The position numbers and the translations under genes are program-made. This document shows positions 23,949-39,383 of a stretch of 64,000 nt of DNA, one piece after another. The notes beneath the pieces are model-generated. The model made no database searches, was not told where the DNA came from, and saw only the letters and a program-made list of their open reading frames with translations. Position 1 is the stretch's first letter. Every line of letters begins with the position of its first letter. The stretch is from Ostreococcus lucimarinus (Eukaryota), in the NCBI GenBank assembly GCA_000092065.1, contig CP000590.1; one strand, given 5' to 3'.

Positions 23949-26900
23949 ATGGCGAGCGAACCGGCGCGCGCGAAGTTCAAATCCCTGCGAGGATGGAACG
24001 TCGATAAGTACCAGTTCGATGTGCGCGCGCAGAGCGCGTACAACGTCCTGCCGGGGACGCAACGTTTGAAATTGCTGTGGAGGCGCGGACACAAGCGCGC
24101 GGAGACGAAGACGGCGAACGTGACGCGCGGGGAAGCGGTGTGGGATGAAACGCTGACGCTGTCGTGCTCGATGTTTGTGAATCCGAAGACTGGGATGTAC
24201 GAGAGCAAGCCGGCGATGTTCGTGCTGCAGACGGTGAACGAGGACGGGTCGATTGGGAAGACGTACGCGGAGGCGACGATTGATCTGTTGGAGTTTGCGT
24301 TGAATCCGGGACGGGAACTGTCGCAGACGGTGCCGATGAGACAAGGAGCGGTGTCGATGTTGACACATTTACAGTTCGCCGTCACGGCGACGCCGTTGGC
24401 GGAAAACGTGGCGTTGAGCGACGTGTCGAGCGCGCTGAGCGTCGCCGATCTAGCCGACGTCGCCGAGTTGGCAGCGACGAGCGCGGTGCCGGAAAAGTTG
24501 GCGGTGAACGTGATCGGGGAGCACGAAGATGAGGGATATTTCGATGAGAAACTCGATGTCAGAGAGGATGCGCAATCGGAAAGTGAAAAAGAGGATAGCG
24601 AATTTGCCTACTTTGACGAACGCCTGGCGTACAAGGTGGAGGGCGACGACACGGAACAACTTCCGCCGCCGACTGCGGAGGAACTATTATCGGGCGTTGA
24701 CGCTGAAGAAGGCATCGTACCCGGTGTGAAGATGATGCGCTTGATTGTCGGGAAAAAGTGCAAAATTTTCGTGCGGGGTCAGGATAACTTTGGCAACGCA
24801 CGCACGACAGGCGGGGACAACGTCGAGGGCGTGTTGATCGGTCCGAGCGGGCAGCGCGGGTTAGTGAGCACTAAAGACCACGGCGATGGCTCGTACTTGC
24901 TAGAGTTTACGTGCATGCAACAAGGGATTTGGACCCTTCGTACGCGGTTTAACGGTAGACTGAGCGTGGAGCGACACAAGCTCGTGGTTTCCTTCGGTCC
25001 GCTCACGGCCCAGGACGTTCGGGTGCAGTTACCGAAGCCGCCGTTCAGATGCGGTGCGTACACGGACATGCAAGTCGTTGTTGAGCATCCGGAAGATGGG
25101 AGAATTCTAACTGGTGCAGAGGCGTTTAACGTTCGCCTCGTCTCACCGGCGGGCTTGTCGTTGGGCGTTCCGCTCGACATTCGTCCCGGGACGACCGCCG
25201 CCGTCGCGCGAATCAACTGGCCCGAAGTTGGCGAGCATCAGCTTGACGTAAGACTAGATGGTGAATCGCTTCGCGGGTCGCCCATGCGAGTCGAAGTTGT
25301 GCCTGAGGATTTGTGCCTAGCCGCTTGTCAACTTCAAGGTCCGGGTGTTCATCGATGCACGGCGGGCATACGCTCCGCGTTTGTCATCGAAGCTCACGAC
25401 AGTCGTGGTAATCGTCTCCTTTCTGGAGGCGCGCCACTCTTTTTGGGCATTCGCACGGCATCGAATGAGTCGTACTCGGGTGAGATTGTTGATTTCGGCA
25501 ACGGCACGTACGAAGCTTCGTACTCTGTTCGTGTTTCTGGTTATTACGAATTATCGCTCGCCATCTTAGGTGAGGAACTCGTAATTAAAGGCTTATGTGA
25601 ACCCGGCAAGGCCGTCGTCGCGGGTTGTGAGCTGGTCGGCGACGCCGGATTGGACCTTGAAGTTGGCTCTTCCGGTCGCTACAGTATCATTCGTCACGAT
25701 GCATACGGCAACAGAGTGCCAACGCGTCAGGGACAAATCAAGTTCAAAGTTACCGCCGATGGACCTGGACCCGCAACTTGTACGATGATTGATAGAGCTG
25801 ATGGCGTTAGTGATGTCGATGTCAGTACCTCTGTAGCCGGGAGGTATTTCGTCCAGGTGACGGCTGGTGATCAAGAACCGATTCCTGGTTCGCCGTTTGA
25901 AGTCATCGCATATCCTAGTCCTGCTTCGCACGAAACGAGTGTGACGACAGTGTTCGGTGCACAGTTAGCCGCAAGTGATAGCGATGTCCTCGTGGCTGTT
26001 GCTGGCGAAGAGGTCTCGTTATCAGTAGCACCTCGTGATATGTACGGCAACGTCACTGTCTTCTCCAAGTCGGCGGCGATCACTGCGACAGCGACGGGAG
26101 GTGGCGTCTCGACTTCCTTTGAAGAACGCACTGGAACTCGCACGGAAGTTTCTTTGTTCTCGACTTTCAGACTAGCTGGGTCGTACTTGCTCACCGCAAA
26201 AATCGGCGACAAGGTGTTAGACGGCTACCCAAGGATTCTCACGGTTGTTTCGGCGGCCACTGAACCTCGAAAGTGCATGTTGTTTGGTGACGCGCTTCAA
26301 GGCGTGAGGTGTAACCGAGTTTCAACACTCACCGTGCACGCAGCAGATAAATTTGGAAACTTGAGATCGACGGGTGGCGACGTTGTCGATGTCAACTTGT
26401 GCTCACCCGACGGAAAGTACGTCGTTGCTTCAAAGGTTGATGACCACGCCGACGGAACGTACGGCGCAAAATTCAAGCTCGAGCGCCCGGGGACGTGGGA
26501 AATCCAACTCGTCGTCAATGGCCGCGGTGGCCGGACGCAAGTCAATGAGATTACTTCGTATTTTGCAGGCGTCAAAGCGAACGAGTGTACGTTTTCTGGC
26601 ATGGGTTCGGATGGTGTTGAAGGCGTCGTATGCTTTAAGCAGAGTGACATCGTCATCGAGCCAGCTGACTTTGAGCAAAACTCACGCCTCATGAGCGGGA
26701 AAGAAGCCGTCGCAGTCCGTATTCTCACGCCATCTGGAGGTATTAGCTCTGTGGATCTCAAGTTCGAAAATGGAAAATATAGAGGATCGTACACCTGGAC
26801 TCAGCCAGGTCAGCACACCGTGTCCGTGTCTCTTGATCAAGAAGCCATCGTGGGGTCGCCGTTTTCCGTTGAGGCCATGAGTGCGTTGCCTCAAATTGCC

Positions 26901-29900
26901 GAACTGGAGAACATGGCCGTCGGGGAGATTGCCGATATCCTTCCAAAGCTCAGTGGCGAAGGTGCATCGCAAGCGTTGCAGTCTCTTGGACCCGATAAAG
27001 CGGCCGAAGCGTTGGCGGGCAACACGCCCGAGTCAGCGGTGCGAATGATGGCGCATGTGTTCCCTGGAAATGTTGCGGAAATTCTTAGTTGCATGCGTCC
27101 TGACGCAGCCGCAGCGACAATCTCTGCGATGCCCGGCGAGCGAGCCGCTGAGGTTCTCAGCACAATGCAATCAAACGACGCGACGCAGCTGATGAAGAAT
27201 ATGTCGAGTGGGGAGATATCTGAAAAGGCTGAAATGTTCGCCGACGTCATTTGTGGCATGAAGGAAGACGATATGCTTGTGTGCGTTCGCGAGCTCATGA
27301 ATTCGCGAACCGCGGAGAAAGGTTTAAAGTCAGTGCTAGATAAAATGCCCGCGCGCGTCGTAGCTGAACTCACTGGTAAGCTGGATAAGGGTGAGAACAC
27401 CAGGCTTCTTTCCGGGCTTTCGCATGAGCGCACAGCCGCCATTGTCTCTAAACTGCCAGTTGAGCTGCAAGCCGGTGTCATTGGCCTGCTCGGCGGAGAT
27501 TCCATGTTCCAGATGACGAAGACCTTGTATGCTGCGTATAAAGTGGACAAGAATTCGTCCGCACAAGAGCGCAGTCGAATGAAGGCGGATGCCCAGGACA
27601 CGGGTCACCGGCTGGCCCCAGCTCTCGCTAGCATGGACACGGAGGAGCTCCGCGACAATTTCAAGCAAGCAACGCCCGAGCATATCGGTGGCTGCCTCTT
27701 TGCACTCATCGACGCAAAGCGCCGTCAGGTTGGCTCTAAAGCTATCGCTCGTCCCGTGGCACAGATGATGGAAGACGGCTCGATCGAATGGGGGGATGGT
27801 TCCATTTCTCACGTGAACGAAGACAGATCGGCAATCAATCATTCCGACGGAACTTCGGCATCCCTTCGTGTAGATGGTACTATCATCGATAGCGATGGAC
27901 AAGTGCTCAAACTTAGACCTGATGGGATCATCACGGCCGATGGTACTGTCCTAGGGGCCGACGGAGAAATCACCACCGCTCCGTCCGGTCCGTTGCACAT
28001 GTTCAGGGCACTGACGACGGAGCAGCAAACAGCGGCGATTCTTGAGCTCATCGAATTCAGTCAAACGGGTAACGCCGGCGAGATCTTGGTCGATCTCACC
28101 GCGACGGAGCTTCGCGAGACAATCCGCCCCATGGGTGCTAGCGACCAGGCGAAAGTCTTCATAGAAATCGGGCGAATGTCGCCCTCGCAAGCAGCTCGCG
28201 CTGCTTCAGTTCTCAGCCACACCGAAGCTGCATCAGTGGTGAGCATCATGGTGAATCCCGGTTCAAGCGGGCGATGCGACGAGCCATTCATGGGCCCGTT
28301 CCTCGAGGCGCTGGCGCCGCAGATTTTGCGTAACATCGAACCACCAACAGCTGTTGGCGGCGCGCTGGCAACGCATCTTTCCCCGACGGCAGCTGCTCAC
28401 GTTTTGCACAAGCTCGAGCCGATGGATGTGTCGCGTATCATCGAAGGAATGAGTCCAGCAGAAGTGCGCCAAGTCATCGAATCGAGTTCGAATATTCAGG
28501 CCGAAGCCGGTAAGGCTGTGAGCGATACTCCGCTCATCGCCGCGCTCGTGCCTTACGTGTCCGCCATGGATGACTCGCAAGCGGCGACGCTCTTGGAAGG
28601 TCTTCCTGCGGACATGGCTGTTGGCGTCATGATGTGCACGCCTGAAGAACGGGCTAAAGAGATTATGTCGCACACGCGAAGACGAGACTTGAAGGAGCGC
28701 ATAGCGAACAAATCCTTGATTCACCTCGACGCGTGTACTATCGTCAACCTTCGTGGGGCAGTAGCAGGGGAATCCTCTTCCTTCATTTTAGAAGCGAGAG
28801 AGCGCGGTGGAAACAGGATTACTTTTGGAGGCGGACGGTTGACAGTCGCCACGAAGCTGTTCTCCGCGCCTGGTCCTGGCGTTGAGCAAGGGACTGTCCA
28901 TGACCGCGGTAATGGTGAATACGTCGTACAGTTCACGAGCACCTTGGCCGGTAAGATCGCCGTCGTTGTCGAGGCTTCCGGACAATCTCGTGCCTGGGAC
29001 GTAAACATCGAGGCATCCGACGTCGTTATTCCAAAGTGTACGATCGAAAAGCAAGGATTGGAGAGTTGGACGGCCGGTAGTCCTGGTAGAATACTGCTTA
29101 CTTTGCGCGATCGCTTCGGGAATTTCGCTCATTCGTCGAAAAGTATCCTCGAGTTCGAAGCTCGCGCATCAGGACCTGGAGGCGTCATCGTCGAGCGCAA
29201 CATGTTGGATGACGGGAAAATTGAATTTCTCCTGAACACGACTGTCACTGGCATTTACAAAGTCGCCGTATCGTGCTTGGATACGAAAGAAGATTTGAGC
29301 GGCTGTCCCTTTGAAGCACGTATGGGGACCGACGCTCTCTCCCAAGCGGGCTGTACCGCCTCATTGCAATCTCTCACGAGTTCGACAAAGGGCCCGGGGG
29401 CGAAAGCCGCCGCCTATGGCGCCTGCGCCGCCATGGCGGGTGAAGAAGTCACCTGCGTTGTGGAGGCTCGCGATCGGTACGGCAATACGACTACTTTTGC
29501 AGGCGAACACGTGGCCGTCATTGCGTTCGGACCGGCGCACTTGCCCGCGGATAGACCGTTTGAAGTGGCCGACGTTCGCAGTGGCCGGATGGCGCTTCGA
29601 GCCATCTTCCCACGATCGGGGAGCTACACGATCGCTGTAACTGTTGACGGCATCCCGATCGCTACGTCTCCGCTCATCTTGCACGTTTTTCCGGGTGCGT
29701 GCGAAACGAGTCGTGCGGTCTTACGTGGTGACGCGCTCAATGGCATCGTCGCGAGTAAGATTACAAGTCTTCTTGTGCAAACAGAGGACAAGTACGGGAA
29801 CCATTGCCACGTGGGTGGCGACAGGGTGAATCTCTCCATGTCAGGACCGAACGGCATCAAAGTAAATTCTTTGGACGTCAAAGACAACGAAGACGGAACG

Positions 29901-32900
29901 TATTCTTTCTCATTCATCATTCCACAATCTGGTCGATGGACGATTCAAGCCGTCGTGAACGGTCGCATTGCAAAAGAGAGCACCACTGAAGTTGTCGTCA
30001 CATACGGCCCATTACACGCCGCCGCGTGCGTGTTGAAAGGAGGTCCTGGAATGAAACGTACGGAAGTTTGCGGTGCGCAGCGCGATATTTACTTGCAAGC
30101 TCTCGAATATGACGCAAACGGGCGCGGGATGAGCGGGCAAGAAGCTATCACAATGCACTTGATTACGCCAAGTGGTGCGACGCACACACTCGCCCCCGTT
30201 TTTGCCGAACGAGGCTCTCGCTACAAGGCCACGGTACGATGGTGGGAGGTTGGAAGACACGAGGTTGTCGCCGCAGTCGGGGGACAACCAGTTGTAGGTT
30301 CTCCATTCGTAGTGAACGTTGAAGCGCAGGAAGTGAGTCTGCCGATGTGTCGACTCTCGGGACCTGGCCTTCAGGGTGCTGTCGCGGGAGAGCGAGCCAC
30401 GATCCTCATCGAGTCAAGAGACGAACGCGGTAACCGACTCTTCAATGGCGGTGCACAAATGGGCATTGCCGTGCGATCGGGCGGTGAAACTCTTCGTGGC
30501 AAGGTGCAAGATTGCGGGGACGGTACGTATGAGGCGAGTTACATTGTCGAGCGTGCCGGACCGTTCGAGTTGTCACTGTTCCTCGGCACGGAGGCGGCTA
30601 CGTACAGGGCGACATGTAAGCCAGGACGCGTAGATTACGCCAAGTGCCGCGTTGATGGGGTGAATAATGGCGTATGGGTTGCTGGCGAGCAACTCACTCT
30701 CACAGTCACGCGCATGGATCGTTTTGGTAACAGAATCACCCGTCGCGAAGGGCTGGCGCCTTTCTTCGGCAAGGCGATTGGACCTGGAGATATCGTAAGC
30801 CAGTCGTTAGAACTCGGTAACGGAACGGCGGAAATCAAGTTGTACGGCACAGTTGCTGGAAACTATCAAATCGGTGTCTACGTTGCCGACACTCCCATTG
30901 TGCCTTACGCGAATGAGGAAGCCGAAGCTCTTATGGAGAACCAACAGCTCCTCCTCGAAGACTCAAAATCCGCTAAGTCCAAAGCAGATAGCAAAAGGAT
31001 TGAAGCGCAAGAGTCTGGTCTTCGAACAGATTCTCTCGCGGGTACCGTGCGTTCGGCGTCAAAGAGTGATATCAACGCTGGCAAGCCATTGGCCGCGGTT
31101 CCAGGAACCTTCATCGCCTCTGAAGACATTGAAGCGATGAAGGAAGTAACGCTGCCAAAGGTGACGACAATGAATGGCGTCGAAATGGTTCCGTTACCGA
31201 ATGGTTTGTTCGAGATGAACTTGATACCGACGATTGCGATGCCGAATTGCTGTGAGTTAGAAGTCATTGGTGGCACGCGCGCCGATGATTCATGGATCAC
31301 CCCAGCGGGTGACGAAGTGATTGTCAGAGTCATAGCCCGAGACAGATACAAGAATGAAACGCACTGGGAGGAGGGTCAAACGATCACCGTCGAGGCACTC
31401 GGTCCAGAGTTTCTGAGTTTCTCCTCGCACGGAACGACGAGCTTACAGAACGAGTTCGTCGCGAAGATGATTCGCGCGGGCACGTTTGAGCTTCGAGTGC
31501 TTTGTGACGCCCTTCCAGTCTGCTGGAGGGCAATGCAAGTCATCGCTGGCTTCACTTTCGCGCCGCGATCGATTTTGAGTATGGATGGGTTGAAGGACGT
31601 CAAAACTGGTAACATCGTTCGATTGACACTTCGAACAGTCGATAGGTATGCCAACCTCCGTCTTAGTGGTGGAGATACGGTGCAGCTAGCGCTCCAAGGT
31701 CCGAACGGCGCATTCGCTCGCCAAGTGAGCGTGACGGATCATCAAGATGGTACTTACGCGCTTGAATTCCAAGTCACTGCCGCAGGCAGGTGGATTATGA
31801 GTACGCGCATCAATAGTGTTCTTCACGTCGAGGGCGGAATTTCTTTTGTCGTTGCGTTCGGTACACTGACGGCAGAGGAGGCGGTGGTTTCTTTCGATCC
31901 TCCTTTGCCTAAAAACGGATCTGTTGAATGCGGTCGCACAAGCGATCTGATGCTGCATGGCGCCGGTTGGGAGACGAACAATCGCGTCATGACCGGTTTG
32001 GAGGCTGTGAGCGTTCGCTTGACGCATCCCTCTGGTTCTCAAGAAGCTATTCCGGTCACGTTGTCAAGGGATAACAAGTGTTATACCGCCAAGATCCGCT
32101 GGCTCCATCCTGGTCACCACTCTGTGAACATCATGTTGGACGGTGTTGTGGTTCCAGGCACGCCAGTTCGCGCCAACGCAGAGGGTAAAAAACTCGCTCT
32201 TATTTCATCAGCTCTTGTCGGCGATGGTGCCACAACTGCCACCGCCGGAGAAGATGCCGAGTTTACGCTTCTCGCTCGCGATTACGGAGGAAACCAAATT
32301 AACAAGGGCGGCGCTGACTTGGCGATTTCTTGTCGAGCCAGTGGCAGAGAACCAATTGCTGGTGAAATCCATGATAACGGCGACGGCTCGTACCGCTGCA
32401 TCTACTCGAGTACGATTGCGGGCGATATCGAAGTTGTCTTAACGTTAAATGAAGGCACGACGCAGACGAAGCGTTTGATCAACGTCAAATGCGAAGCGGC
32501 TGAGTGCGAAATCAGCGAATGTCGTGTTGACGCTGGTAAAATGATGTTACTTTGGAATGCGGGAGACGCTGGTCTAATTCGCGTCCAACGCCGGGACAAG
32601 TATGGTAACCCGACGACTAAAGATACCGCAAATGGTCTTAACCGTTTCGCCGCCGAAGTTGTCGGGCCAGGATGGGCTGACTGTGAAGCCTTGGAGCTTG
32701 GCGATGGTTCGTGCGAACTTCGACTTGTCGCTCAGGCTGCTGGGTCCTACGACATCTCTATCGTCGCCTTGGCAATCGATGAAGAAACAATGACCCCACT
32801 CGATGTTCCATCCGTCGAACTCACGTCTTTCAGCGCTATGGTGAGCAGTCAAGAGACTTTCCCGTCTTCTTGCGTCGCCCGAATGGCACTTGTCAACGGC

Positions 32901-35900
32901 GGTAAAGAGGAAACGCTCGCCGAAGTGGACGCCGATATTACGCTGCCGTCCACCATCATGGCAGGGGATGATATTGCGATGCACGTCTTATCACGCGACT
33001 TGCACGGGAATCACACTAACTGGCTTGGCGGCGAACGTATCGCCGTTCACGCACGCGGACCCATCGAAGTTCCGTTCGTTCCGATGGATGCGGTCGGCTC
33101 TTTCACGGCGGTCATCACAACGGCCGGAGCCTACTCGGTCGCCGCCCTCGTCGGCGACTGTGCGTGCAACGGATGGCCAAGAATCTTGCAAGTCGTCGCT
33201 GGTCCGTGTAACCCGGACAAGTGCACGGTAAGTGGGGATGCGCTCGGTAATTGTGCGACAGCGACTCCTATTTCGCTGTTGATGCAAGCTACGGACCAGT
33301 ACGGTAATCCGCGATCGCTTGGCGGTGATTTCATTGAAGCAGTGCTGATCAACGAAGACGAAGGTACCATTGATACACAGATAATCGACAATACCGACGG
33401 TACTTACACAATTAATTTCGAGCTGGACATGCCGATTGAGCACGAGCTGTGGATTTCTGCCAATGGCCTGCGCGAGAAACAAAGTCGCTACAGCTTGATG
33501 CCCAGCCTTGGCGCGCTGCAAGCGTCGGATTGCGTCATCAACGGTCTCGGCGGCGAGCGGTTGTGTCTCGCCGATCGCTCGACACTTTTCGTGCAACCAG
33601 CGAATCCGAGTCGCGTAATGAGTGGCAGGGAAGCCGTGGTGGTGTCTGTTCGCATGCCGAGCGAAATGTCCTTCAACTTGCCCCTGAAGTTTGAAACCGA
33701 TTCGCGAAGATTTTCGTGCCCTCTTCTTTGGGTTGAAGTCGGCGATCATCACATCACTGTCAATCTTGCTGGTGAAGTCGTTCCGGGTTGTCCATTCATG
33801 GTTCGTGTTCGAGATCCAGATGAAGAATTTGAGGAAATCGAAGGCGAGGAGTCGCAGACGGCGATGACCATGGTTCCCGCGGATAACTCTTTCGGATTTG
33901 TCTACACCAACGACAAGACGGCCGTCGCCGCTGCGCAAGCCGCGAGTGGCATCGGCACGACAGACGTGGACCCGGACGCAGAAGACGAAGACGATGAAGA
34001 TGCCTTCACATTTGGAACCGCACTCAACCCGCCACCTCCGCAACAAGTGGATTCGACCATCGCCATTATCCGCAAGCTCGAGCTCGAGGATGCAGGTGAT
34101 GCGCTCTCTGATATGCGCCCGGAGGTTGCCGCGGCGGTTTTGCAGCGCTTGAATCCACAAAAGGCTGCGTGTGCTGCGGCGATGATGTCTCAGACTGAAC
34201 TTAGTGCAGCGGTGGTAATGATGACGGAGGAAAGCGTATTGAGCGTGCTCAACGACGCGCCACCGGCCGCACGTGCGTCTATCATCGAATCTTTACCACC
34301 CGCTGCTGCGGCACAAGTGATGAATGGTATGGATGCCCGCGCCGCTTCCTTATGCGTCAATAAGCTCATTGATCCCGACGTTGCCGCGGCAATCATCGCT
34401 AAGATGAAACCCACAAAGGCAGCCGAGATGATGCAGTTTATCCCAGCTGATGCACAGAAGGCAATTTTGATCGAACTCGACCCGGTATCCATGTGCGCAT
34501 TGGTCACTGGTGCGTATGAGCCGACGGCGGCGGATGCCATCAGGCGAGGCCTGCAAGTGTCCCCGGACACGGTCAGTATCATCTTTACCACCGCTCCGGC
34601 GGAAGAGTGCGCTAAGATGGTCCGAAACATGCAACTTGACGCTCAAGGTTGTGAAATTGCAGCCGGTGCTATGCAGCGCGCCGCGCGAACGCATCCTCGT
34701 GCCGTTGAAAATATTCTCGCCATGACGAAGATGACCGCCGTCGACGGCGGCGCCGCCATCAAGGCAGCCGTGTTGAGACAACCGGGTGGTGATGTGATCG
34801 TCAAGAACGCCGAAACGAGTATAGCAAAGGGCGAGATTGAAATCCCCGCGCCCGTCGTGAAGACAAGGCAAGCCAAATTTAAGTGGGGTGGCACCGGTCT
34901 TAAGCCGAGTAAGACTGCATCCGAGCGCGCGGCGCGTTCGCTCGCCGGTATGGCTCCAAAGGTGTCTGCTCAAGCGCTCGCCGACATGCGTCCCGGTGCA
35001 GCGGGCGCGGTGCTCGCATCGATGGACTCTGAACGTATCTCCAGTATCATCTCCGTTATGGATCAGAATGTCATGGCGAGCGCGGTCGGAAGTATGGAGG
35101 CTGAAGAGGCATTACGCGTCATCAGCAGCTCATCGAATGCGGCGCGCGTGACGATTGTTGAAGCGCTCCCGGCTGGCGCGGCAGGATCCATCTTGAGTAT
35201 GTTACCGGCAGACGAAGCCGCGGACTTGCTTCGAGCCATGGACGCCAGCGCCGCCATTGAAGCAGTAAGCTCGATGCCCGCCAAGGCGGCTGCACTTGCC
35301 TTGCAAGAGCTCCCTGATGATCAAATGTCGACGTATTTGCTCACGCTTCCACCGAGCACGGCGGCACCTATCCTCTCGCACATGTGCGAGAGAGAAGAAG
35401 GCCGAGTGAGTGCATCCAAGGCGTTACAGCTGTTGAGCACGCTCAACGCAGATAAGACTACATTACACATCAGTGGAATGTTGCAACGAGATCCGAAGAG
35501 CACAGCGAAAATCATGACCGAACTCACCCAAGACGCTCGCGCAGCTGTGTTGGGTGCCTTGAACGCAAAGGATGCTGGCAAGGCGCTTCAATTCTTGGGG
35601 CCTCAAAATGCCGCATCTTCGCTCGTGGCTGCGGTAGCTGCGGGTACGAGTCCAGCGATTGCCGCAGTTGCACTCGAATCGTTGGCACGCCTCGGTGTTT
35701 GGCCACCAAGCATTGACGTACCGCGTTCTGGCGCCAAAGTGCGAGGTCCGCTTGCTGACGTCCTGTTGGTCATGTTCGAGCTTGAGCCTGAAGCAGCAGC
35801 GCAAGTACTCACCGCGCTCGATCCCGATGTCAGCGCATCGGCCGTCGGAGCAATGACCCCTGCAACTGCTGGTGCACTCGCGAGTGCCATCCCAGATCCA

Positions 35901-38900
35901 AAGGCTGCTGCGCTCTTGTTGGAGTCAATGCCGCACGCCAAACGGGCGGCGATGATCATCAAGATGCGTCCGCAGCCCGCCGCGGATGCGGCATCGAACA
36001 TGGAAACAGAGAACATCCTCGCTGTGATGAAAACGCTGTATGAAACGTTGGATCCGGCGACAATGTCGATTGCGAACGACATCATCTCGAAGATGGAGCC
36101 TTTCAAAGCTGGTTCCGTCGTTGCGGGTCTGGATGAAGCACACGCTGTCCGCATAATGTCAGCGTTGCCTCCTTTGGTTGCTGCCGCCTTGATTTCCAGT
36201 GGTGGTCTTCCGAGTGACAAGGCTGGTACATTCCTCGATCGCGTGAAGGTAGATCAAGCGGAGAATGTCCTTGCGGCACTCCCTCCGACTCTCGCGGAGG
36301 AAGCCGTGCAGAAGGTGTCAAGCACCGAGCTCAAGTCGAAGACGGCGTCTCGCACGGTGGTGCACCTGACCTCATCCCACATCTCAGGTCCTGGATGCGA
36401 AGAATGCGTCGCCGGTCTGGAAACCAAGTTCATCTTCGAAAGCACCAATCCAGGTGGTGTCCGAATCCACAAGGGTGGCGCGACATTGCAGTGCACAATC
36501 CATCATTTGACCTTCAAGTCGCAAGATGGGACGAACAGCGTGGATTTCATTCGAGGCGAAGGCAAACACGTGCAGGTGCAAGACATGATGAACGGTGCGT
36601 ACGAGTTCCCTTACAAACTCGATAAAGCCGGTGAATATGATGCCATGATTACGTCTGCTGGGCAGACTCGCGTCGTGCGAATCAGGTGCAAACCAACGAT
36701 ACTTGATCCGACGCAGTGCTCGGTGGTGCCGGTTGAGGAAGGAACCACATGGCGGGCGGGTGAAGTCCTCGTAGTCAAGGTGCTTTGTCGAGATCGATTC
36801 GGAAACGATGTTGCGCCACCGAAACAGGGTGATGCTGGTGTTGATTTCGTCTTGCTGGCGGATGGAGAAGGGCCGAGCGTCGTCGAGGCAGAGGTCGTCA
36901 ACGACCCAGCGGGTGTCGGCGCCTTCGCGAAATTCCGCGCGACGGAGTGCGGCAAGTACTCGCTTCGCATTTTTACGGCAGACGTCGCTCGTCAATGGTG
37001 GGGTGGTGTACAACGCGACTGCATTCAAGGTGCACCGATCGACATCGTTTTGACGGCCACCGCCGCAGATGCCTCGCGCTCAAGCGTGCAGCTCAGCGGC
37101 ATTCGTGAACGAGGTGGTGGCATGCTTCTCGGTTTGGCTGGTCGACAAATGGCCATCATCATTTTCGCCAGAGACAAGTTCAACAACGAAGCAGTCTTTG
37201 ATAATCAAAGACTGCGTGTTGACGCTGTCGGTGTCGCTACTTCTGTATTTAGCCTTACCTCGAAAGAGCCCGGAGAAGCAATGTTTACGAGTGCACTCCA
37301 GCGAGCAGGTACTTACTCGCTTCGCGTGACTGTGGACGGTAAGCCCGTGCACGGTTTCCCCCGTAACTTGCAGGTTGTTGCCGCTCAAACGGATCCGCGT
37401 TTCTGCTCTATTCGTGGAGATGCGCTCAACACTGTCGTTGCAGGCGAAGTCACGAAGGTTCTCGTGAATGCTGCGGATCGGTACCAAAACGTCTGCCTCG
37501 AAGGCGGTGATAGACTCACGGCGCGCCTTCTCGGTCCGGCGGGTTCTATCGATGCTGATACTTCTGATTTCGGCGATGGTACGTACCGATTGTCGTTCGT
37601 CGTCCCACGGGCTGGTGAGTGGAGAATCTTCTTAGCGGTTAATGGCGTGGAGAATCCGAAACCCGCGACTTCATTCGTCGCTTCCCAAGGCGGCTTGACG
37701 TCAAAGCAGCTCATGCTCATTCCAGCCGACAAGCGTGACGAGTACATGGTGGGTTCTGAATCTGAATTCTTCATTCAGTCCATCGATTACGAGGTCGGAG
37801 GTCTCGAAGTGAACGGCCATGAGGCTATCTGTCTGCGATTAATCGCACCCTCTGGCTTGTCCACGATTGTTCCCTTGAGGTTGACCAAAGACAAGGCGCG
37901 TTACCGCGCCAATATAATGTGGCCTGAAGTGGGCTCGCATTCGCTCATCGCGGCTTTGAACGGCGAAACTGTCGTTGGATGTCCATTCTCTGTGCAAACC
38001 GCCGCAGCACAGGTGTACGTCCCGGGATGTAAGATGACTGGCGCGGGCTCGACGAAGGCTGTCGCGGGCGAACGAGCGTCGTTCATCGTTGAGGCACGAG
38101 ACAACAGAGGCAACCGCATGATGGGAGGAGGCGCTACTCTGAGCGCCGTCGTACGATCTGCGTTGACCCCGGGGAAATCAGTCAAGGCCACCATACTTGA
38201 TCAAGGAGATGGTACGTACGTGTGCAGCTACACGATTAACAAAGCTGGTCCGTTCACCATCGTTGTGTCCTCACCCAACTCGCAAGCAACGCTCAGCGCC
38301 ACGTGCGTTGCCGGACCAGCGGACCCAGCATACTGCCGAATCGACGCGAGCGACGTCAAACAGATTGAAGCTGGTACGCGCGGCATCGTCAAGGTGTTAC
38401 GCGCCGATCGCTTCGATAACTTAATTCCCGCTGGTGCGGAGTTGATGCCATTCCGCGTTGAAGTCACTGGCGTCGGCCCGGCGGATGTCGAAACCGTCGA
38501 AGCAGGAGACGGTTCGGCAGAAGTTCGATTCGAGGCTCGTGCAGTCGGTCGATACACTCTTTACGTGTGGAGCGGCTTCAAACGCGAACCGGTGTTGGGT
38601 TCTCCGTGCGAGATTCAAGTCCTACCCAGTCAGCCCGCGGCTTCATCCTGCAAGGCGCAGTTACAAGGCGCCGAGTTCAAAGCTCAAGGCGTCTACAGCG
38701 CGCAAGCGGGTACCACTGTCACGGTGCGCATGCAACCGCGCGACAGATTCGGGAACACCACGGCTTGGAAGTCCTGGCAAACACTCAGCGTTACCGCGAG
38801 TGGTACCGAAGACATAACGTTTACAGAAATTGATGATCAAGAAGCAGTCTCGTCCCGCGGTGTGTTTTCTGCGACGTTTTCGAAAGCCGGCGCGTACGTC

Positions 38901-39383
38901 GTCTGGGTTACCGTCGGTGGACAAACCATCGTCGGCTGGCCGCGAGTCGTGCAAATCATTCCGGGCACCACCAACGCCAACGTCTCTCAGCTTCGTCCCG
39001 AGGCCGATAGTATGGCTCTCGCCGCCGAACTGGTGCGCCACGGTGGAAACGACGCTTCTCTCATCGACGCGCTCGGCCGTCAATCCACCGACGTGGACAA
39101 GCTGCGCGGTGAGATGATCGCTTTGAAGCAAAAGTTGGCTTCCTACGAACGCGCTGAACACGACGCGCGTCAGCGTGGCACAATAGATCCCACCGCCACC
39201 GCGCTGACGACTGAGCAAGTGGACAAGAAGAATATGAAAACCATGCAGTTGATGGTCGCCGAGACCGAGTCCGATAGAGGCACGCTCGACTCCGCCAACG
39301 ACGACGACGAGTTCGGCGACGCGTCGCCATTCTATGATGACAACGTTGACGACGCGGAGTTTGAAGACGCACGATCGCCGTGA
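23949..39383 (+). CDS. Giant single-exon protein (5144 aa). Layout: N-terminal NT-C2-like C2 domain; acidic linker; about 7 filamin/ABP280 Ig repeats; Ala-rich MgtE_N/FliG-like helical-repeat block (about nt 26880..28740); about 17 filamin repeats; acidic linker plus a second helical-repeat block (about nt 34050..36360); about 9 filamin repeats; C-terminal coiled coil and acidic tail.
   Basis: It is one stop-free frame of 15.4 kb with diverse composition. The N-terminus (KFKSLRGWNVDKYQFDVRAQ...RGEAVWDETLTLSCSMFV...KPAMFVLQ...IDLLEFA) fits the NT-C2 (EHBP1/PMI1-type) pattern. Dozens of roughly 95-aa units carry the filamin signature (e.g. GQDNFGNARTTGGDNVEGVLIGPSG...DHGDGSYLLEFT; DRYGN...GG...V...GP.G......D..DGTY.......AG.W). 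The helical blocks show L..M.P..AA.VL..M periodicity (e.g. SDMRPEVAAAVLQRLNPQKAACAAAMMSQTELSAAVVMM...SLPPAAAAQVMNGMDARAASLCVNKLIDPDVAAAIIAKMKPTKAAEMMQFIPADAQKAILIELDP). Confidence 0.9.
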   Translation: MASEPARAKFKSLRGWNVDKYQFDVRAQSAYNVLPGTQRLKLLWRRGHKRAETKTANVTRGEAVWDETLTLSCSMFVNPKTGMYESKPAMFVLQTVNEDGSIGKTYAEATIDLLEFALNPGRELSQTVPMRQGAVSMLTHLQFAVTATPLAENVALSDVSSALSVADLADVAELAATSAVPEKLAVNVIGEHEDEGYFDEKLDVREDAQSESEKEDSEFAYFDERLAYKVEGDDTEQLPPPTAEELLSGVDAEEGIVPGVKMMRLIVGKKCKIFVRGQDNFGNARTTGGDNVEGVLIGPSGQRGLVSTKDHGDGSYLLEFTCMQQGIWTLRTRFNGRLSVERHKLVVSFGPLTAQDVRVQLPKPPFRCGAYTDMQVVVEHPEDGRILTGAEAFNVRLVSPAGLSLGVPLDIRPGTTAAVARINWPEVGEHQLDVRLDGESLRGSPMRVEVVPEDLCLAACQLQGPGVHRCTAGIRSAFVIEAHDSRGNRLLSGGAPLFLGIRTASNESYSGEIVDFGNGTYEASYSVRVSGYYELSLAILGEELVIKGLCEPGKAVVAGCELVGDAGLDLEVGSSGRYSIIRHDAYGNRVPTRQGQIKFKVTADGPGPATCTMIDRADGVSDVDVSTSVAGRYFVQVTAGDQEPIPGSPFEVIAYPSPASHETSVTTVFGAQLAASDSDVLVAVAGEEVSLSVAPRDMYGNVTVFSKSAAITATATGGGVSTSFEERTGTRTEVSLFSTFRLAGSYLLTAKIGDKVLDGYPRILTVVSAATEPRKCMLFGDALQGVRCNRVSTLTVHAADKFGNLRSTGGDVVDVNLCSPDGKYVVASKVDDHADGTYGAKFKLERPGTWEIQLVVNGRGGRTQVNEITSYFAGVKANECTFSGMGSDGVEGVVCFKQSDIVIEPADFEQNSRLMSGKEAVAVRILTPSGGISSVDLKFENGKYRGSYTWTQPGQHTVSVSLDQEAIVGSPFSVEAMSALPQIAELENMAVGEIADILPKLSGEGASQALQSLGPDKAAEALAGNTPESAVRMMAHVFPGNVAEILSCMRPDAAAATISAMPGERAAEVLSTMQSNDATQLMKNMSSGEISEKAEMFADVICGMKEDDMLVCVRELMNSRTAEKGLKSVLDKMPARVVAELTGKLDKGENTRLLSGLSHERTAAIVSKLPVELQAGVIGLLGGDSMFQMTKTLYAAYKVDKNSSAQERSRMKADAQDTGHRLAPALASMDTEELRDNFKQATPEHIGGCLFALIDAKRRQVGSKAIARPVAQMMEDGSIEWGDGSISHVNEDRSAINHSDGTSASLRVDGTIIDSDGQVLKLRPDGIITADGTVLGADGEITTAPSGPLHMFRALTTEQQTAAILELIEFSQTGNAGEILVDLTATELRETIRPMGASDQAKVFIEIGRMSPSQAARAASVLSHTEAASVVSIMVNPGSSGRCDEPFMGPFLEALAPQILRNIEPPTAVGGALATHLSPTAAAHVLHKLEPMDVSRIIEGMSPAEVRQVIESSSNIQAEAGKAVSDTPLIAALVPYVSAMDDSQAATLLEGLPADMAVGVMMCTPEERAKEIMSHTRRRDLKERIANKSLIHLDACTIVNLRGAVAGESSSFILEARERGGNRITFGGGRLTVATKLFSAPGPGVEQGTVHDRGNGEYVVQFTSTLAGKIAVVVEASGQSRAWDVNIEASDVVIPKCTIEKQGLESWTAGSPGRILLTLRDRFGNFAHSSKSILEFEARASGPGGVIVERNMLDDGKIEFLLNTTVTGIYKVAVSCLDTKEDLSGCPFEARMGTDALSQAGCTASLQSLTSSTKGPGAKAAAYGACAAMAGEEVTCVVEARDRYGNTTTFAGEHVAVIAFGPAHLPADRPFEVADVRSGRMALRAIFPRSGSYTIAVTVDGIPIATSPLILHVFPGACETSRAVLRGDALNGIVASKITSLLVQTEDKYGNHCHVGGDRVNLSMSGPNGIKVNSLDVKDNEDGTYSFSFIIPQSGRWTIQAVVNGRIAKESTTEVVVTYGPLHAAACVLKGGPGMKRTEVCGAQRDIYLQALEYDANGRGMSGQEAITMHLITPSGATHTLAPVFAERGSRYKATVRWWEVGRHEVVAAVGGQPVVGSPFVVNVEAQEVSLPMCRLSGPGLQGAVAGERATILIESRDERGNRLFNGGAQMGIAVRSGGETLRGKVQDCGDGTYEASYIVERAGPFELSLFLGTEAATYRATCKPGRVDYAKCRVDGVNNGVWVAGEQLTLTVTRMDRFGNRITRREGLAPFFGKAIGPGDIVSQSLELGNGTAEIKLYGTVAGNYQIGVYVADTPIVPYANEEAEALMENQQLLLEDSKSAKSKADSKRIEAQESGLRTDSLAGTVRSASKSDINAGKPLAAVPGTFIASEDIEAMKEVTLPKVTTMNGVEMVPLPNGLFEMNLIPTIAMPNCCELEVIGGTRADDSWITPAGDEVIVRVIARDRYKNETHWEEGQTITVEALGPEFLSFSSHGTTSLQNEFVAKMIRAGTFELRVLCDALPVCWRAMQVIAGFTFAPRSILSMDGLKDVKTGNIVRLTLRTVDRYANLRLSGGDTVQLALQGPNGAFARQVSVTDHQDGTYALEFQVTAAGRWIMSTRINSVLHVEGGISFVVAFGTLTAEEAVVSFDPPLPKNGSVECGRTSDLMLHGAGWETNNRVMTGLEAVSVRLTHPSGSQEAIPVTLSRDNKCYTAKIRWLHPGHHSVNIMLDGVVVPGTPVRANAEGKKLALISSALVGDGATTATAGEDAEFTLLARDYGGNQINKGGADLAISCRASGREPIAGEIHDNGDGSYRCIYSSTIAGDIEVVLTLNEGTTQTKRLINVKCEAAECEISECRVDAGKMMLLWNAGDAGLIRVQRRDKYGNPTTKDTANGLNRFAAEVVGPGWADCEALELGDGSCELRLVAQAAGSYDISIVALAIDEETMTPLDVPSVELTSFSAMVSSQETFPSSCVARMALVNGGKEETLAEVDADITLPSTIMAGDDIAMHVLSRDLHGNHTNWLGGERIAVHARGPIEVPFVPMDAVGSFTAVITTAGAYSVAALVGDCACNGWPRILQVVAGPCNPDKCTVSGDALGNCATATPISLLMQATDQYGNPRSLGGDFIEAVLINEDEGTIDTQIIDNTDGTYTINFELDMPIEHELWISANGLREKQSRYSLMPSLGALQASDCVINGLGGERLCLADRSTLFVQPANPSRVMSGREAVVVSVRMPSEMSFNLPLKFETDSRRFSCPLLWVEVGDHHITVNLAGEVVPGCPFMVRVRDPDEEFEEIEGEESQTAMTMVPADNSFGFVYTNDKTAVAAAQAASGIGTTDVDPDAEDEDDEDAFTFGTALNPPPPQQVDSTIAIIRKLELEDAGDALSDMRPEVAAAVLQRLNPQKAACAAAMMSQTELSAAVVMMTEESVLSVLNDAPPAARASIIESLPPAAAAQVMNGMDARAASLCVNKLIDPDVAAAIIAKMKPTKAAEMMQFIPADAQKAILIELDPVSMCALVTGAYEPTAADAIRRGLQVSPDTVSIIFTTAPAEECAKMVRNMQLDAQGCEIAAGAMQRAARTHPRAVENILAMTKMTAVDGGAAIKAAVLRQPGGDVIVKNAETSIAKGEIEIPAPVVKTRQAKFKWGGTGLKPSKTASERAARSLAGMAPKVSAQALADMRPGAAGAVLASMDSERISSIISVMDQNVMASAVGSMEAEEALRVISSSSNAARVTIVEALPAGAAGSILSMLPADEAADLLRAMDASAAIEAVSSMPAKAAALALQELPDDQMSTYLLTLPPSTAAPILSHMCEREEGRVSASKALQLLSTLNADKTTLHISGMLQRDPKSTAKIMTELTQDARAAVLGALNAKDAGKALQFLGPQNAASSLVAAVAAGTSPAIAAVALESLARLGVWPPSIDVPRSGAKVRGPLADVLLVMFELEPEAAAQVLTALDPDVSASAVGAMTPATAGALASAIPDPKAAALLLESMPHAKRAAMIIKMRPQPAADAASNMETENILAVMKTLYETLDPATMSIANDIISKMEPFKAGSVVAGLDEAHAVRIMSALPPLVAAALISSGGLPSDKAGTFLDRVKVDQAENVLAALPPTLAEEAVQKVSSTELKSKTASRTVVHLTSSHISGPGCEECVAGLETKFIFESTNPGGVRIHKGGATLQCTIHHLTFKSQDGTNSVDFIRGEGKHVQVQDMMNGAYEFPYKLDKAGEYDAMITSAGQTRVVRIRCKPTILDPTQCSVVPVEEGTTWRAGEVLVVKVLCRDRFGNDVAPPKQGDAGVDFVLLADGEGPSVVEAEVVNDPAGVGAFAKFRATECGKYSLRIFTADVARQWWGGVQRDCIQGAPIDIVLTATAADASRSSVQLSGIRERGGGMLLGLAGRQMAIIIFARDKFNNEAVFDNQRLRVDAVGVATSVFSLTSKEPGEAMFTSALQRAGTYSLRVTVDGKPVHGFPRNLQVVAAQTDPRFCSIRGDALNTVVAGEVTKVLVNAADRYQNVCLEGGDRLTARLLGPAGSIDADTSDFGDGTYRLSFVVPRAGEWRIFLAVNGVENPKPATSFVASQGGLTSKQLMLIPADKRDEYMVGSESEFFIQSIDYEVGGLEVNGHEAICLRLIAPSGLSTIVPLRLTKDKARYRANIMWPEVGSHSLIAALNGETVVGCPFSVQTAAAQVYVPGCKMTGAGSTKAVAGERASFIVEARDNRGNRMMGGGATLSAVVRSALTPGKSVKATILDQGDGTYVCSYTINKAGPFTIVVSSPNSQATLSATCVAGPADPAYCRIDASDVKQIEAGTRGIVKVLRADRFDNLIPAGAELMPFRVEVTGVGPADVETVEAGDGSAEVRFEARAVGRYTLYVWSGFKREPVLGSPCEIQVLPSQPAASSCKAQLQGAEFKAQGVYSAQAGTTVTVRMQPRDRFGNTTAWKSWQTLSVTASGTEDITFTEIDDQEAVSSRGVFSATFSKAGAYVVWVTVGGQTIVGWPRVVQIIPGTTNANVSQLRPEADSMALAAELVRHGGNDASLIDALGRQSTDVDKLRGEMIALKQKLASYERAEHDARQRGTIDPTATALTTEQVDKKNMKTMQLMVAETESDRGTLDSANDDDEFGDASPFYDDNVDDAEFEDARSP

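What the first reader, a model, noticed from the sequence alone, without database searches (positions are those of the whole stretch)
34050..36360. Second, longer MgtE_N/FliG-like helical-repeat block, preceded by an acidic linker
It has the same repeat type as the first block, but about 770 aa and more regular (…SDMRPEVAAAVLQRLNPQKAACAAAMMSQTELSAAVVMM…, …MRPGAAGAVLASMDSERISSIISVMDQNVMASAVGSMEAEEALRVI…, …ALPPLVAAALISSGGLPSDKAGTFLDRVKVDQAENVLAALPPTLAEEAVQKV). It is flanked upstream by a poly-acidic segment with a PPPPQQ motif. Two non-adjacent blocks of the same repeat inside a filamin array suggest a modular internal duplication. Such blocks could act as spacer or 'stator-like' interaction platforms.
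Basis: partly seen in the sequence, partly recalled or inferred. Interest (0 to 1): 0.55.

Follow-up and report, generated by a model that had tools for sequence, protein, structure and literature searches.

The report
MgtE_N helical solenoid in algal giant
The flagged stretch is a real, folded 769-residue helical-repeat region of the bacterial MgtE-N/FliG type, one of two inserted at equivalent points in a 5144-residue membrane-anchored Ig-rod protein of the tiny green alga Ostreococcus lucimarinus; the domain combination is undescribed, its function is untested, and it is neither a magnesium transporter nor a flagellar part.

Summary

The window is Ostreococcus lucimarinus, a eukaryote. The protein is NT-C2, then 30 filamin-type Ig domains, then a coiled coil. 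The Ig domains form six A-B-C-D-E super-repeats, and both helical blocks sit at the same B|C junction, in super-repeats 2 and 5.

The blocks are related at profile level (74 bits against a maximum of 11 in 1000 shuffles). They share no nucleotide similarity and are not each other's nearest relatives, so any duplication is ancient. Sub-block 2a is a later addition in the Ostreococcus lineage, absent from two distant orthologs.

The protein has no TM or CBS domains, so the automatic "MgtE transporter" name is wrong, and "stator-like" is unsupported. The most likely role, inferred only, is a docking platform within a membrane-anchored rod. It is a known domain in an undescribed architecture; interest is moderate.

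The parts
23949..39383 (+). Giant single-exon gene of 5144 aa (from the first ATG; the ORF opens at GTG 23937). Order: NT-C2, 30 filamin-type Ig domains with two MgtE_N helical blocks, then a coiled coil and acidic tail.
   Evidence: ORF list and translation. Pfam. The exact 5144-aa sequence is in public assemblies, in a cluster of 407 members. Collinear orthologs exist in L001-L004. dN/dS is 0.02-0.10.
23994..24368 (+). NT-C2 domain (aa 20-144), the presumed membrane anchor.
   Evidence: Pfam PF10358, E=3.9e-18, 65.9 bits against a cut-off of 25.2. Phosphoinositide-membrane binding of NT-C2 in EHBP-1 is from PMC4894640.
26889..28715 (+). Helical block 1 (aa 985-1593). Five MgtE_N-like modules split by a 168-aa non-repeat insert (aa 1187-1354). 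It sits at the B|C junction of super-repeat 2.
   Evidence: Pfam MgtE_N E=2.2e-31. Module map. Hit by the block 2-only profile at 74.3 bits. Super-repeat position.
33528..33791 (+). B-type filamin Ig domain of super-repeat 5, immediately upstream of the linker.
   Evidence: Domain 22 of 30, clustered as type B.
33792..34049 (+). Acidic linker (aa 3286-3371), net charge -18. It ends in 'AFTFGTALNPPPPQQV', a degenerate copy of the conserved aromatic-Gly leader.
   Evidence: Composition. An acidic linker is present in all orthologs but is not conserved in sequence.
34050..34502 (+). Sub-block 2a (aa 3372-3522): a partial module plus a full MgtE_N-like module, 13 short helices. Addition in the Ostreococcus lineage.
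   Evidence: Module map. AF2 residues 1-153, pLDDT ~75-86. Offset-291 self-match to 2b. Absent in L002 and L003, present in L001 and L004.
34503..34871 (+). Spacer (aa 3523-3645): longer helices modelled at low confidence, then a disordered stretch. No recognisable domain. Also absent from L002 and L003.
   Evidence: AF2 pLDDT 24-61 for residues ~150-287. No Pfam hit at E<=0.1.
34872..35033 (+). Conserved leader motif plus the first helices of 2b (aa 3646-3699), 'KFKWGGTGLKPSKTASERAARSLAGM...DMRPGAAGAVLASMD'. This is the most conserved stretch of the region and a candidate linear motif or binding site.
   Evidence: Identity 0.78-0.95 to close orthologs and 0.69-0.82 to distant ones, against 0.4-0.6 for the flanking Ig domains. 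Direct reading of L002 and L003.
34920..35657 (+). Sub-block 2b (aa 3662-3907): three MgtE_N-like modules forming a continuous solenoid of about 20 helices.
35658..35756 (+). Short connector (aa 3908-3940) with a predicted beta-hairpin, 'GVWPPSIDVPRSGAKVRG'.
   Evidence: AF2 strands at model residues 555-557 and 562-564. Identity 0.85 among close orthologs.
35757..36338 (+). Sub-block 2c (aa 3941-4134): two MgtE_N-like modules, about 16 helices, with a second conservation peak at aa 3980-4019.
   Evidence: Module map. AF2 pLDDT 70-89. Conservation.
36369..36683 (+). C-type filamin Ig domain of super-repeat 5, immediately downstream of block 2.
   Evidence: Domain 23 of 30. It groups with type C only weakly: it is a separate cluster at the printed cut-offs, its best partners are the C-type domains, and its position in the repeat order fits C.
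38946..39380 (+). C-terminal region (aa 5004-5148): an apparent short coiled coil and an acidic, aromatic-rich tail.
   Evidence: Read from the sequence and its composition; no coiled-coil predictor was run. No Pfam domain.

Best explanation
Block 2 is a folded alpha-solenoid region of the MgtE_N/FliG 'ARM-like' superfamily (Pfam PF03448). About 56 helices of 8-10 residues follow a 12-residue period. They are organised as three right-handed superhelical segments (2a, 2b, 2c; seven Pfam-sized modules), joined by a floppy spacer and a small hairpin.

It is one of two such inserts placed at the same B|C junction of a five-Ig-domain super-repeat, in a 5144-aa soluble protein of Ostreococcus lucimarinus. 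That protein has an N-terminal NT-C2 membrane-binding domain, and orthologs occur in related picoalgae.

The most likely role is inferred, not shown. The Ig arrays would form a long rod anchored to a membrane by NT-C2. The two solenoid blocks would be fixed docking platforms for partner proteins along that rod, and incidentally rigid spacers. The strongly conserved leader motif 'F-x-[FW]-G-G-x-G-L-K-P-S-K-x-A-S-E-R-A-A-[RK]-S-L-A-G-M', sitting behind an acidic linker, would be the key interaction or regulatory site.

The block neither transports nor senses Mg2+, and it has nothing to do with a flagellar motor.

Evolution. The helical block entered the super-repeat early and is shared by all orthologs examined. 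Block 2 was later lengthened in the Ostreococcus lineage by a tandem duplication of the start of 2b, giving 2a plus the spacer.
For: Shown:
- Pfam MgtE_N E=4e-50.
- A profile built only from the window's 12 modules finds MgtE (2yvy, 2e-6; 2oux) and then FliG in the PDB.
- 12-aa unit statistics against shuffles.
- AF2: whole block pLDDT 73 with 56 helices; module model pLDDT 89.4, pTM 0.79.
- Purifying selection, dN/dS ~0.10.
- Collinear syntenic orthologs in four other genomes.
- No TM segment. No CBS or MgtE membrane domain.
- Eukaryotic host: exact matches to O. lucimarinus proteins and eukaryotic neighbours BUB1, DDX23, a nucleoporin and Ipi1.
- Pentad super-repeat with equivalent insertion points.
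- 2a is absent in L002 and L003 and present in L001 and L004, with an offset-291 match to 2b.
- Conservation peak at the leader and the start of 2b.

From the literature:
- NT-C2 binds phosphoinositide membranes in EHBP-1 (PMC4894640).
- MgtE_N/ARM-like domains act as protein-protein scaffolds and ring formers in FliG, FlgY, FlbB and MotE (PMC13023049).
Against: - No experiment or partner is known, so the docking role rests on analogy with other ARM-like solenoids and on a conservation pattern drawn from only four orthologs. Three of those (L001, L003, L004) carry apparent frameshifts from long-read assemblies.
- The AF2 alignments were shallow (4 and 6 rows), and AF2 was trained on MgtE structures, so the fold evidence is not fully independent of the sequence evidence.
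- dS between the window and L001 is saturated, so dN/dS is only approximate.
- The direction of the 2a event (gain or loss) depends on L002 and L003 being independent outgroups. Their taxonomy is unknown.
- Expression of the gene was not verified here.
Confidence: 0.55

Rival explanations
1. Pure mechanical element. The solenoid blocks are only rigid or elastic spacers that set the length or compliance of the Ig rod, comparable to spring elements between Ig segments in titin, with no specific binding partners.
For: The 12-residue unit is dominated by structural core positions (L/M, P, A-A, hydrophobic), and most surface positions are variable. Block length is evolutionarily plastic: 2a is present or absent. 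Identity among the modules is low, 11-27%. The whole-block model resembles generic long solenoids only.
Against: Conservation is uneven. The leader and start of 2b are 0.69-0.82 identical even in distant orthologs, higher than the flanking Ig domains, and part of that stretch is modelled as disordered, which a mere spacer would not need. The insertion point and the acidic linker are conserved across lineages.
Confidence: 0.22
2. Self-association module. As in FliG (ARM_M-ARM_C stacking) and the FlgY/FlbB rings, the MgtE_N blocks of neighbouring molecules, or block 1 with block 2, stack to polymerise the giant protein into a lattice or ring under a membrane.
For: Two related blocks per chain sit at symmetric positions, in the middle super-repeat of each half. 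The same domain family forms homo-oligomeric rings in bacterial motors (PMC13023049). A C-terminal stretch that reads as a coiled coil could add dimerisation.
Against: The blocks are highly diverged from each other. Nothing distinguishes this from hetero-partner docking.
Confidence: 0.13
3. Mg2+-related function. The block is a Mg2+ sensor or part of a Mg2+ transporter, as the automatic IMG name 'Mg/Co/Ni transporter MgtE' implies.
For: Pfam family name, IMG and UniRef auto-annotations. Each sub-block carries a modest net negative charge.
Against: There is no MgtE membrane domain, no CBS pair and no TM segment anywhere in the 5144 aa. In MgtE the Mg2+ sites are, to my knowledge, formed with the CBS domains and the plug helix, which are absent here. 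The genuine Ostreococcus MgtE/SLC41-type protein is a different gene, ostta18g01947 (PMC6410215).
Confidence: 0.04
4. Artefact. An Ala-rich low-complexity stretch gives spurious matches to helical-repeat profiles.
For: Alanine is 20.7% of block 2. The word-indexed search was swamped by low-complexity candidates.
Against: Shuffle controls, Pfam at 169 bits, an independent profile-to-PDB hit, a confident AF2 module, MgtE and FliG as top fold hits by two methods, and purifying selection.
Confidence: 0.01

Closest known systems
MgtE cytoplasmic N domain (Pfam PF03448; e.g. T. thermophilus MgtE, PDB 2yvy/2yvx; E. faecalis 2oux)
   Different: MgtE has one N domain of about 10 helices fused to a CBS pair and a five-helix membrane pore. 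Here there are about 56 helices in solenoids of 13-20 helices, no CBS and no membrane domain, inside a eukaryotic Ig-rod protein.
FliG ARM-like motifs and FlgY/FlbB/MotE head domains of bacterial flagellar motors
   Different: No FliG_C domain was found in the window protein, and there is no N/M/C organisation and no flagellar context. The host is a eukaryote whose flagella, where present in relatives, are unrelated to bacterial ones.
Uncharacterised eukaryotic tandem MgtE_N array proteins (Chloropicon primus QDZ23986.1, PAN + MgtE_N x7; Cladocopium goreaui CAI4009529.1, Ank + DUF6829 + MgtE_N x7; Guillardia theta XP_005820741.1, x9; Tubulanus polymorphus XP_074642653.1; metagenomic MgtE_N + PDZ)
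   Same: Long tandem arrays of 5-11 MgtE_N modules in eukaryotic proteins with no transporter part. They are the best non-orthologous hits of both blocks.
   Different: None combines the array with filamin Ig domains or NT-C2. Their arrays are single contiguous blocks rather than two inserts at equivalent points of an Ig super-repeat. All are functionally uncharacterised.
Filamins (ABP-280 family)
   Same: Long rod of filamin-type Ig repeats (Pfam PF00630, 30 copies).
   Different: No N-terminal calponin-homology actin-binding domain; NT-C2 takes its place. Alpha-solenoid inserts are not, to my knowledge, a filamin feature. Dimerisation through the last Ig domain was not tested.
NT-C2 adaptor proteins (EHBP1, plant PMI1, EEIG1)
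   Same: N-terminal NT-C2 domain followed by a long region linking to other structures. This is the model for membrane anchoring (PMC4894640, PMC7442826).
   Different: Those proteins carry CH/bMERB or plant-specific regions, not Ig rods or MgtE_N solenoids, and are several-fold smaller.

Membership tests
MgtE_N superfamily (Pfam PF03448, ARM-like right-handed superhelix) | Sequence match to the family profile above the curated threshold | tested here: met
   169 bits against a cut-off of 25.9, E=4.1e-50, 6 stretches. A profile of the window's own modules finds MgtE 2yvy at E=2e-6.
MgtE_N superfamily (Pfam PF03448, ARM-like right-handed superhelix) | Fold: stack of short helices (~12-residue period) forming the MgtE-N-type superhelix | tested here: met
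MgtE Mg2+ channel/transporter (the IMG automatic name) | C-terminal MgtE membrane domain with transmembrane helices | tested here: not met
   No such Pfam hit in any part of the 5148 codons. The highest 19-residue Kyte-Doolittle mean is 1.83, in an Ala/Ser/Thr/Pro-containing repeat helix.
MgtE Mg2+ channel/transporter (the IMG automatic name) | CBS-domain pair following the N domain | tested here: not met
   No CBS hit at E<=0.1.
FliG (flagellar rotor switch protein) | FliG_N, FliG_M and FliG_C domain organisation | tested here: not met
   Only a partial FliG_M match (model positions 13-46 of 76) and weak FliG_N matches lying under the stronger MgtE_N hits. No FliG_C hit in the window protein.
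FliG (flagellar rotor switch protein) | Bacterial flagellar gene context and organism | tested here: not met
   The window is Ostreococcus lucimarinus nuclear DNA with eukaryotic neighbours.
Filamin (ABP-280) family | Tandem filamin-type Ig repeats | tested here: met
   PF00630 E values from 1e-54 to 5e-83 on the Ig segments. 30 domains mapped.
Filamin (ABP-280) family | N-terminal tandem calponin-homology actin-binding domain | tested here: not met
   The N-terminus is NT-C2 (PF10358) and there is no CH hit.
Filamin (ABP-280) family | Dimerisation through the C-terminal Ig repeat | not testable with these tools
   The C-terminus here reads as a short coiled coil plus an acidic tail. The oligomeric state is unknown.
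Eukaryotic tandem MgtE_N array proteins (uncharacterised, database-only group) | Five or more consecutive MgtE_N modules in a eukaryotic protein lacking transporter domains | tested here: met
   7 modules in block 2 and 5 in block 1. Comparable arrays occur in Chloropicon, Cladocopium, Guillardia and Tubulanus proteins.

The most novel reading that the evidence does not exclude
The two MgtE_N solenoid blocks are polymerisation interfaces. By ARM-on-ARM stacking, as between FliG subunits or in FlgY/FlbB rings, they would link neighbouring NT-C2-anchored Ig rods into an ordered sub-membrane lattice. That would make this giant protein the core of a previously unrecognised membrane skeleton in the smallest free-living eukaryotes, built from a domain otherwise known from bacterial motors and channels. 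The conserved leader motif would regulate assembly.
Probability: 0.1. Interest if true: 0.7.

Novelty: new variant of a known kind. Interest (0 to 1): 0.42.

Why it matters
MgtE_N/FliG-type ARM-like domains have been studied experimentally only in bacterial Mg2+ channels and flagellar motors. Here they form long solenoids of 13-20 helices, which no solved structure shows, inside a roughly half-megadalton protein (by its length) with an N-terminal membrane-binding domain, in Ostreococcus, a model alga with only about 8000 genes.

The architecture is very regular: six five-Ig super-repeats, with the two helical blocks at equivalent junctions. That makes it a clean case for studying how giant modular proteins grow.

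It also gives precise handles for experiments: the blocks, the conserved leader motif and the lineage-specific 2a. To my knowledge, targeted gene modification is possible in O. tauri.

On the practical side, it shows that the automatic name 'Mg/Co/Ni transporter MgtE', attached to named members of this cluster and to similar eukaryotic proteins, is a misannotation.

The domain itself is known, the protein is already in public databases, and the function remains inferred, so the finding is of moderate rather than high interest.

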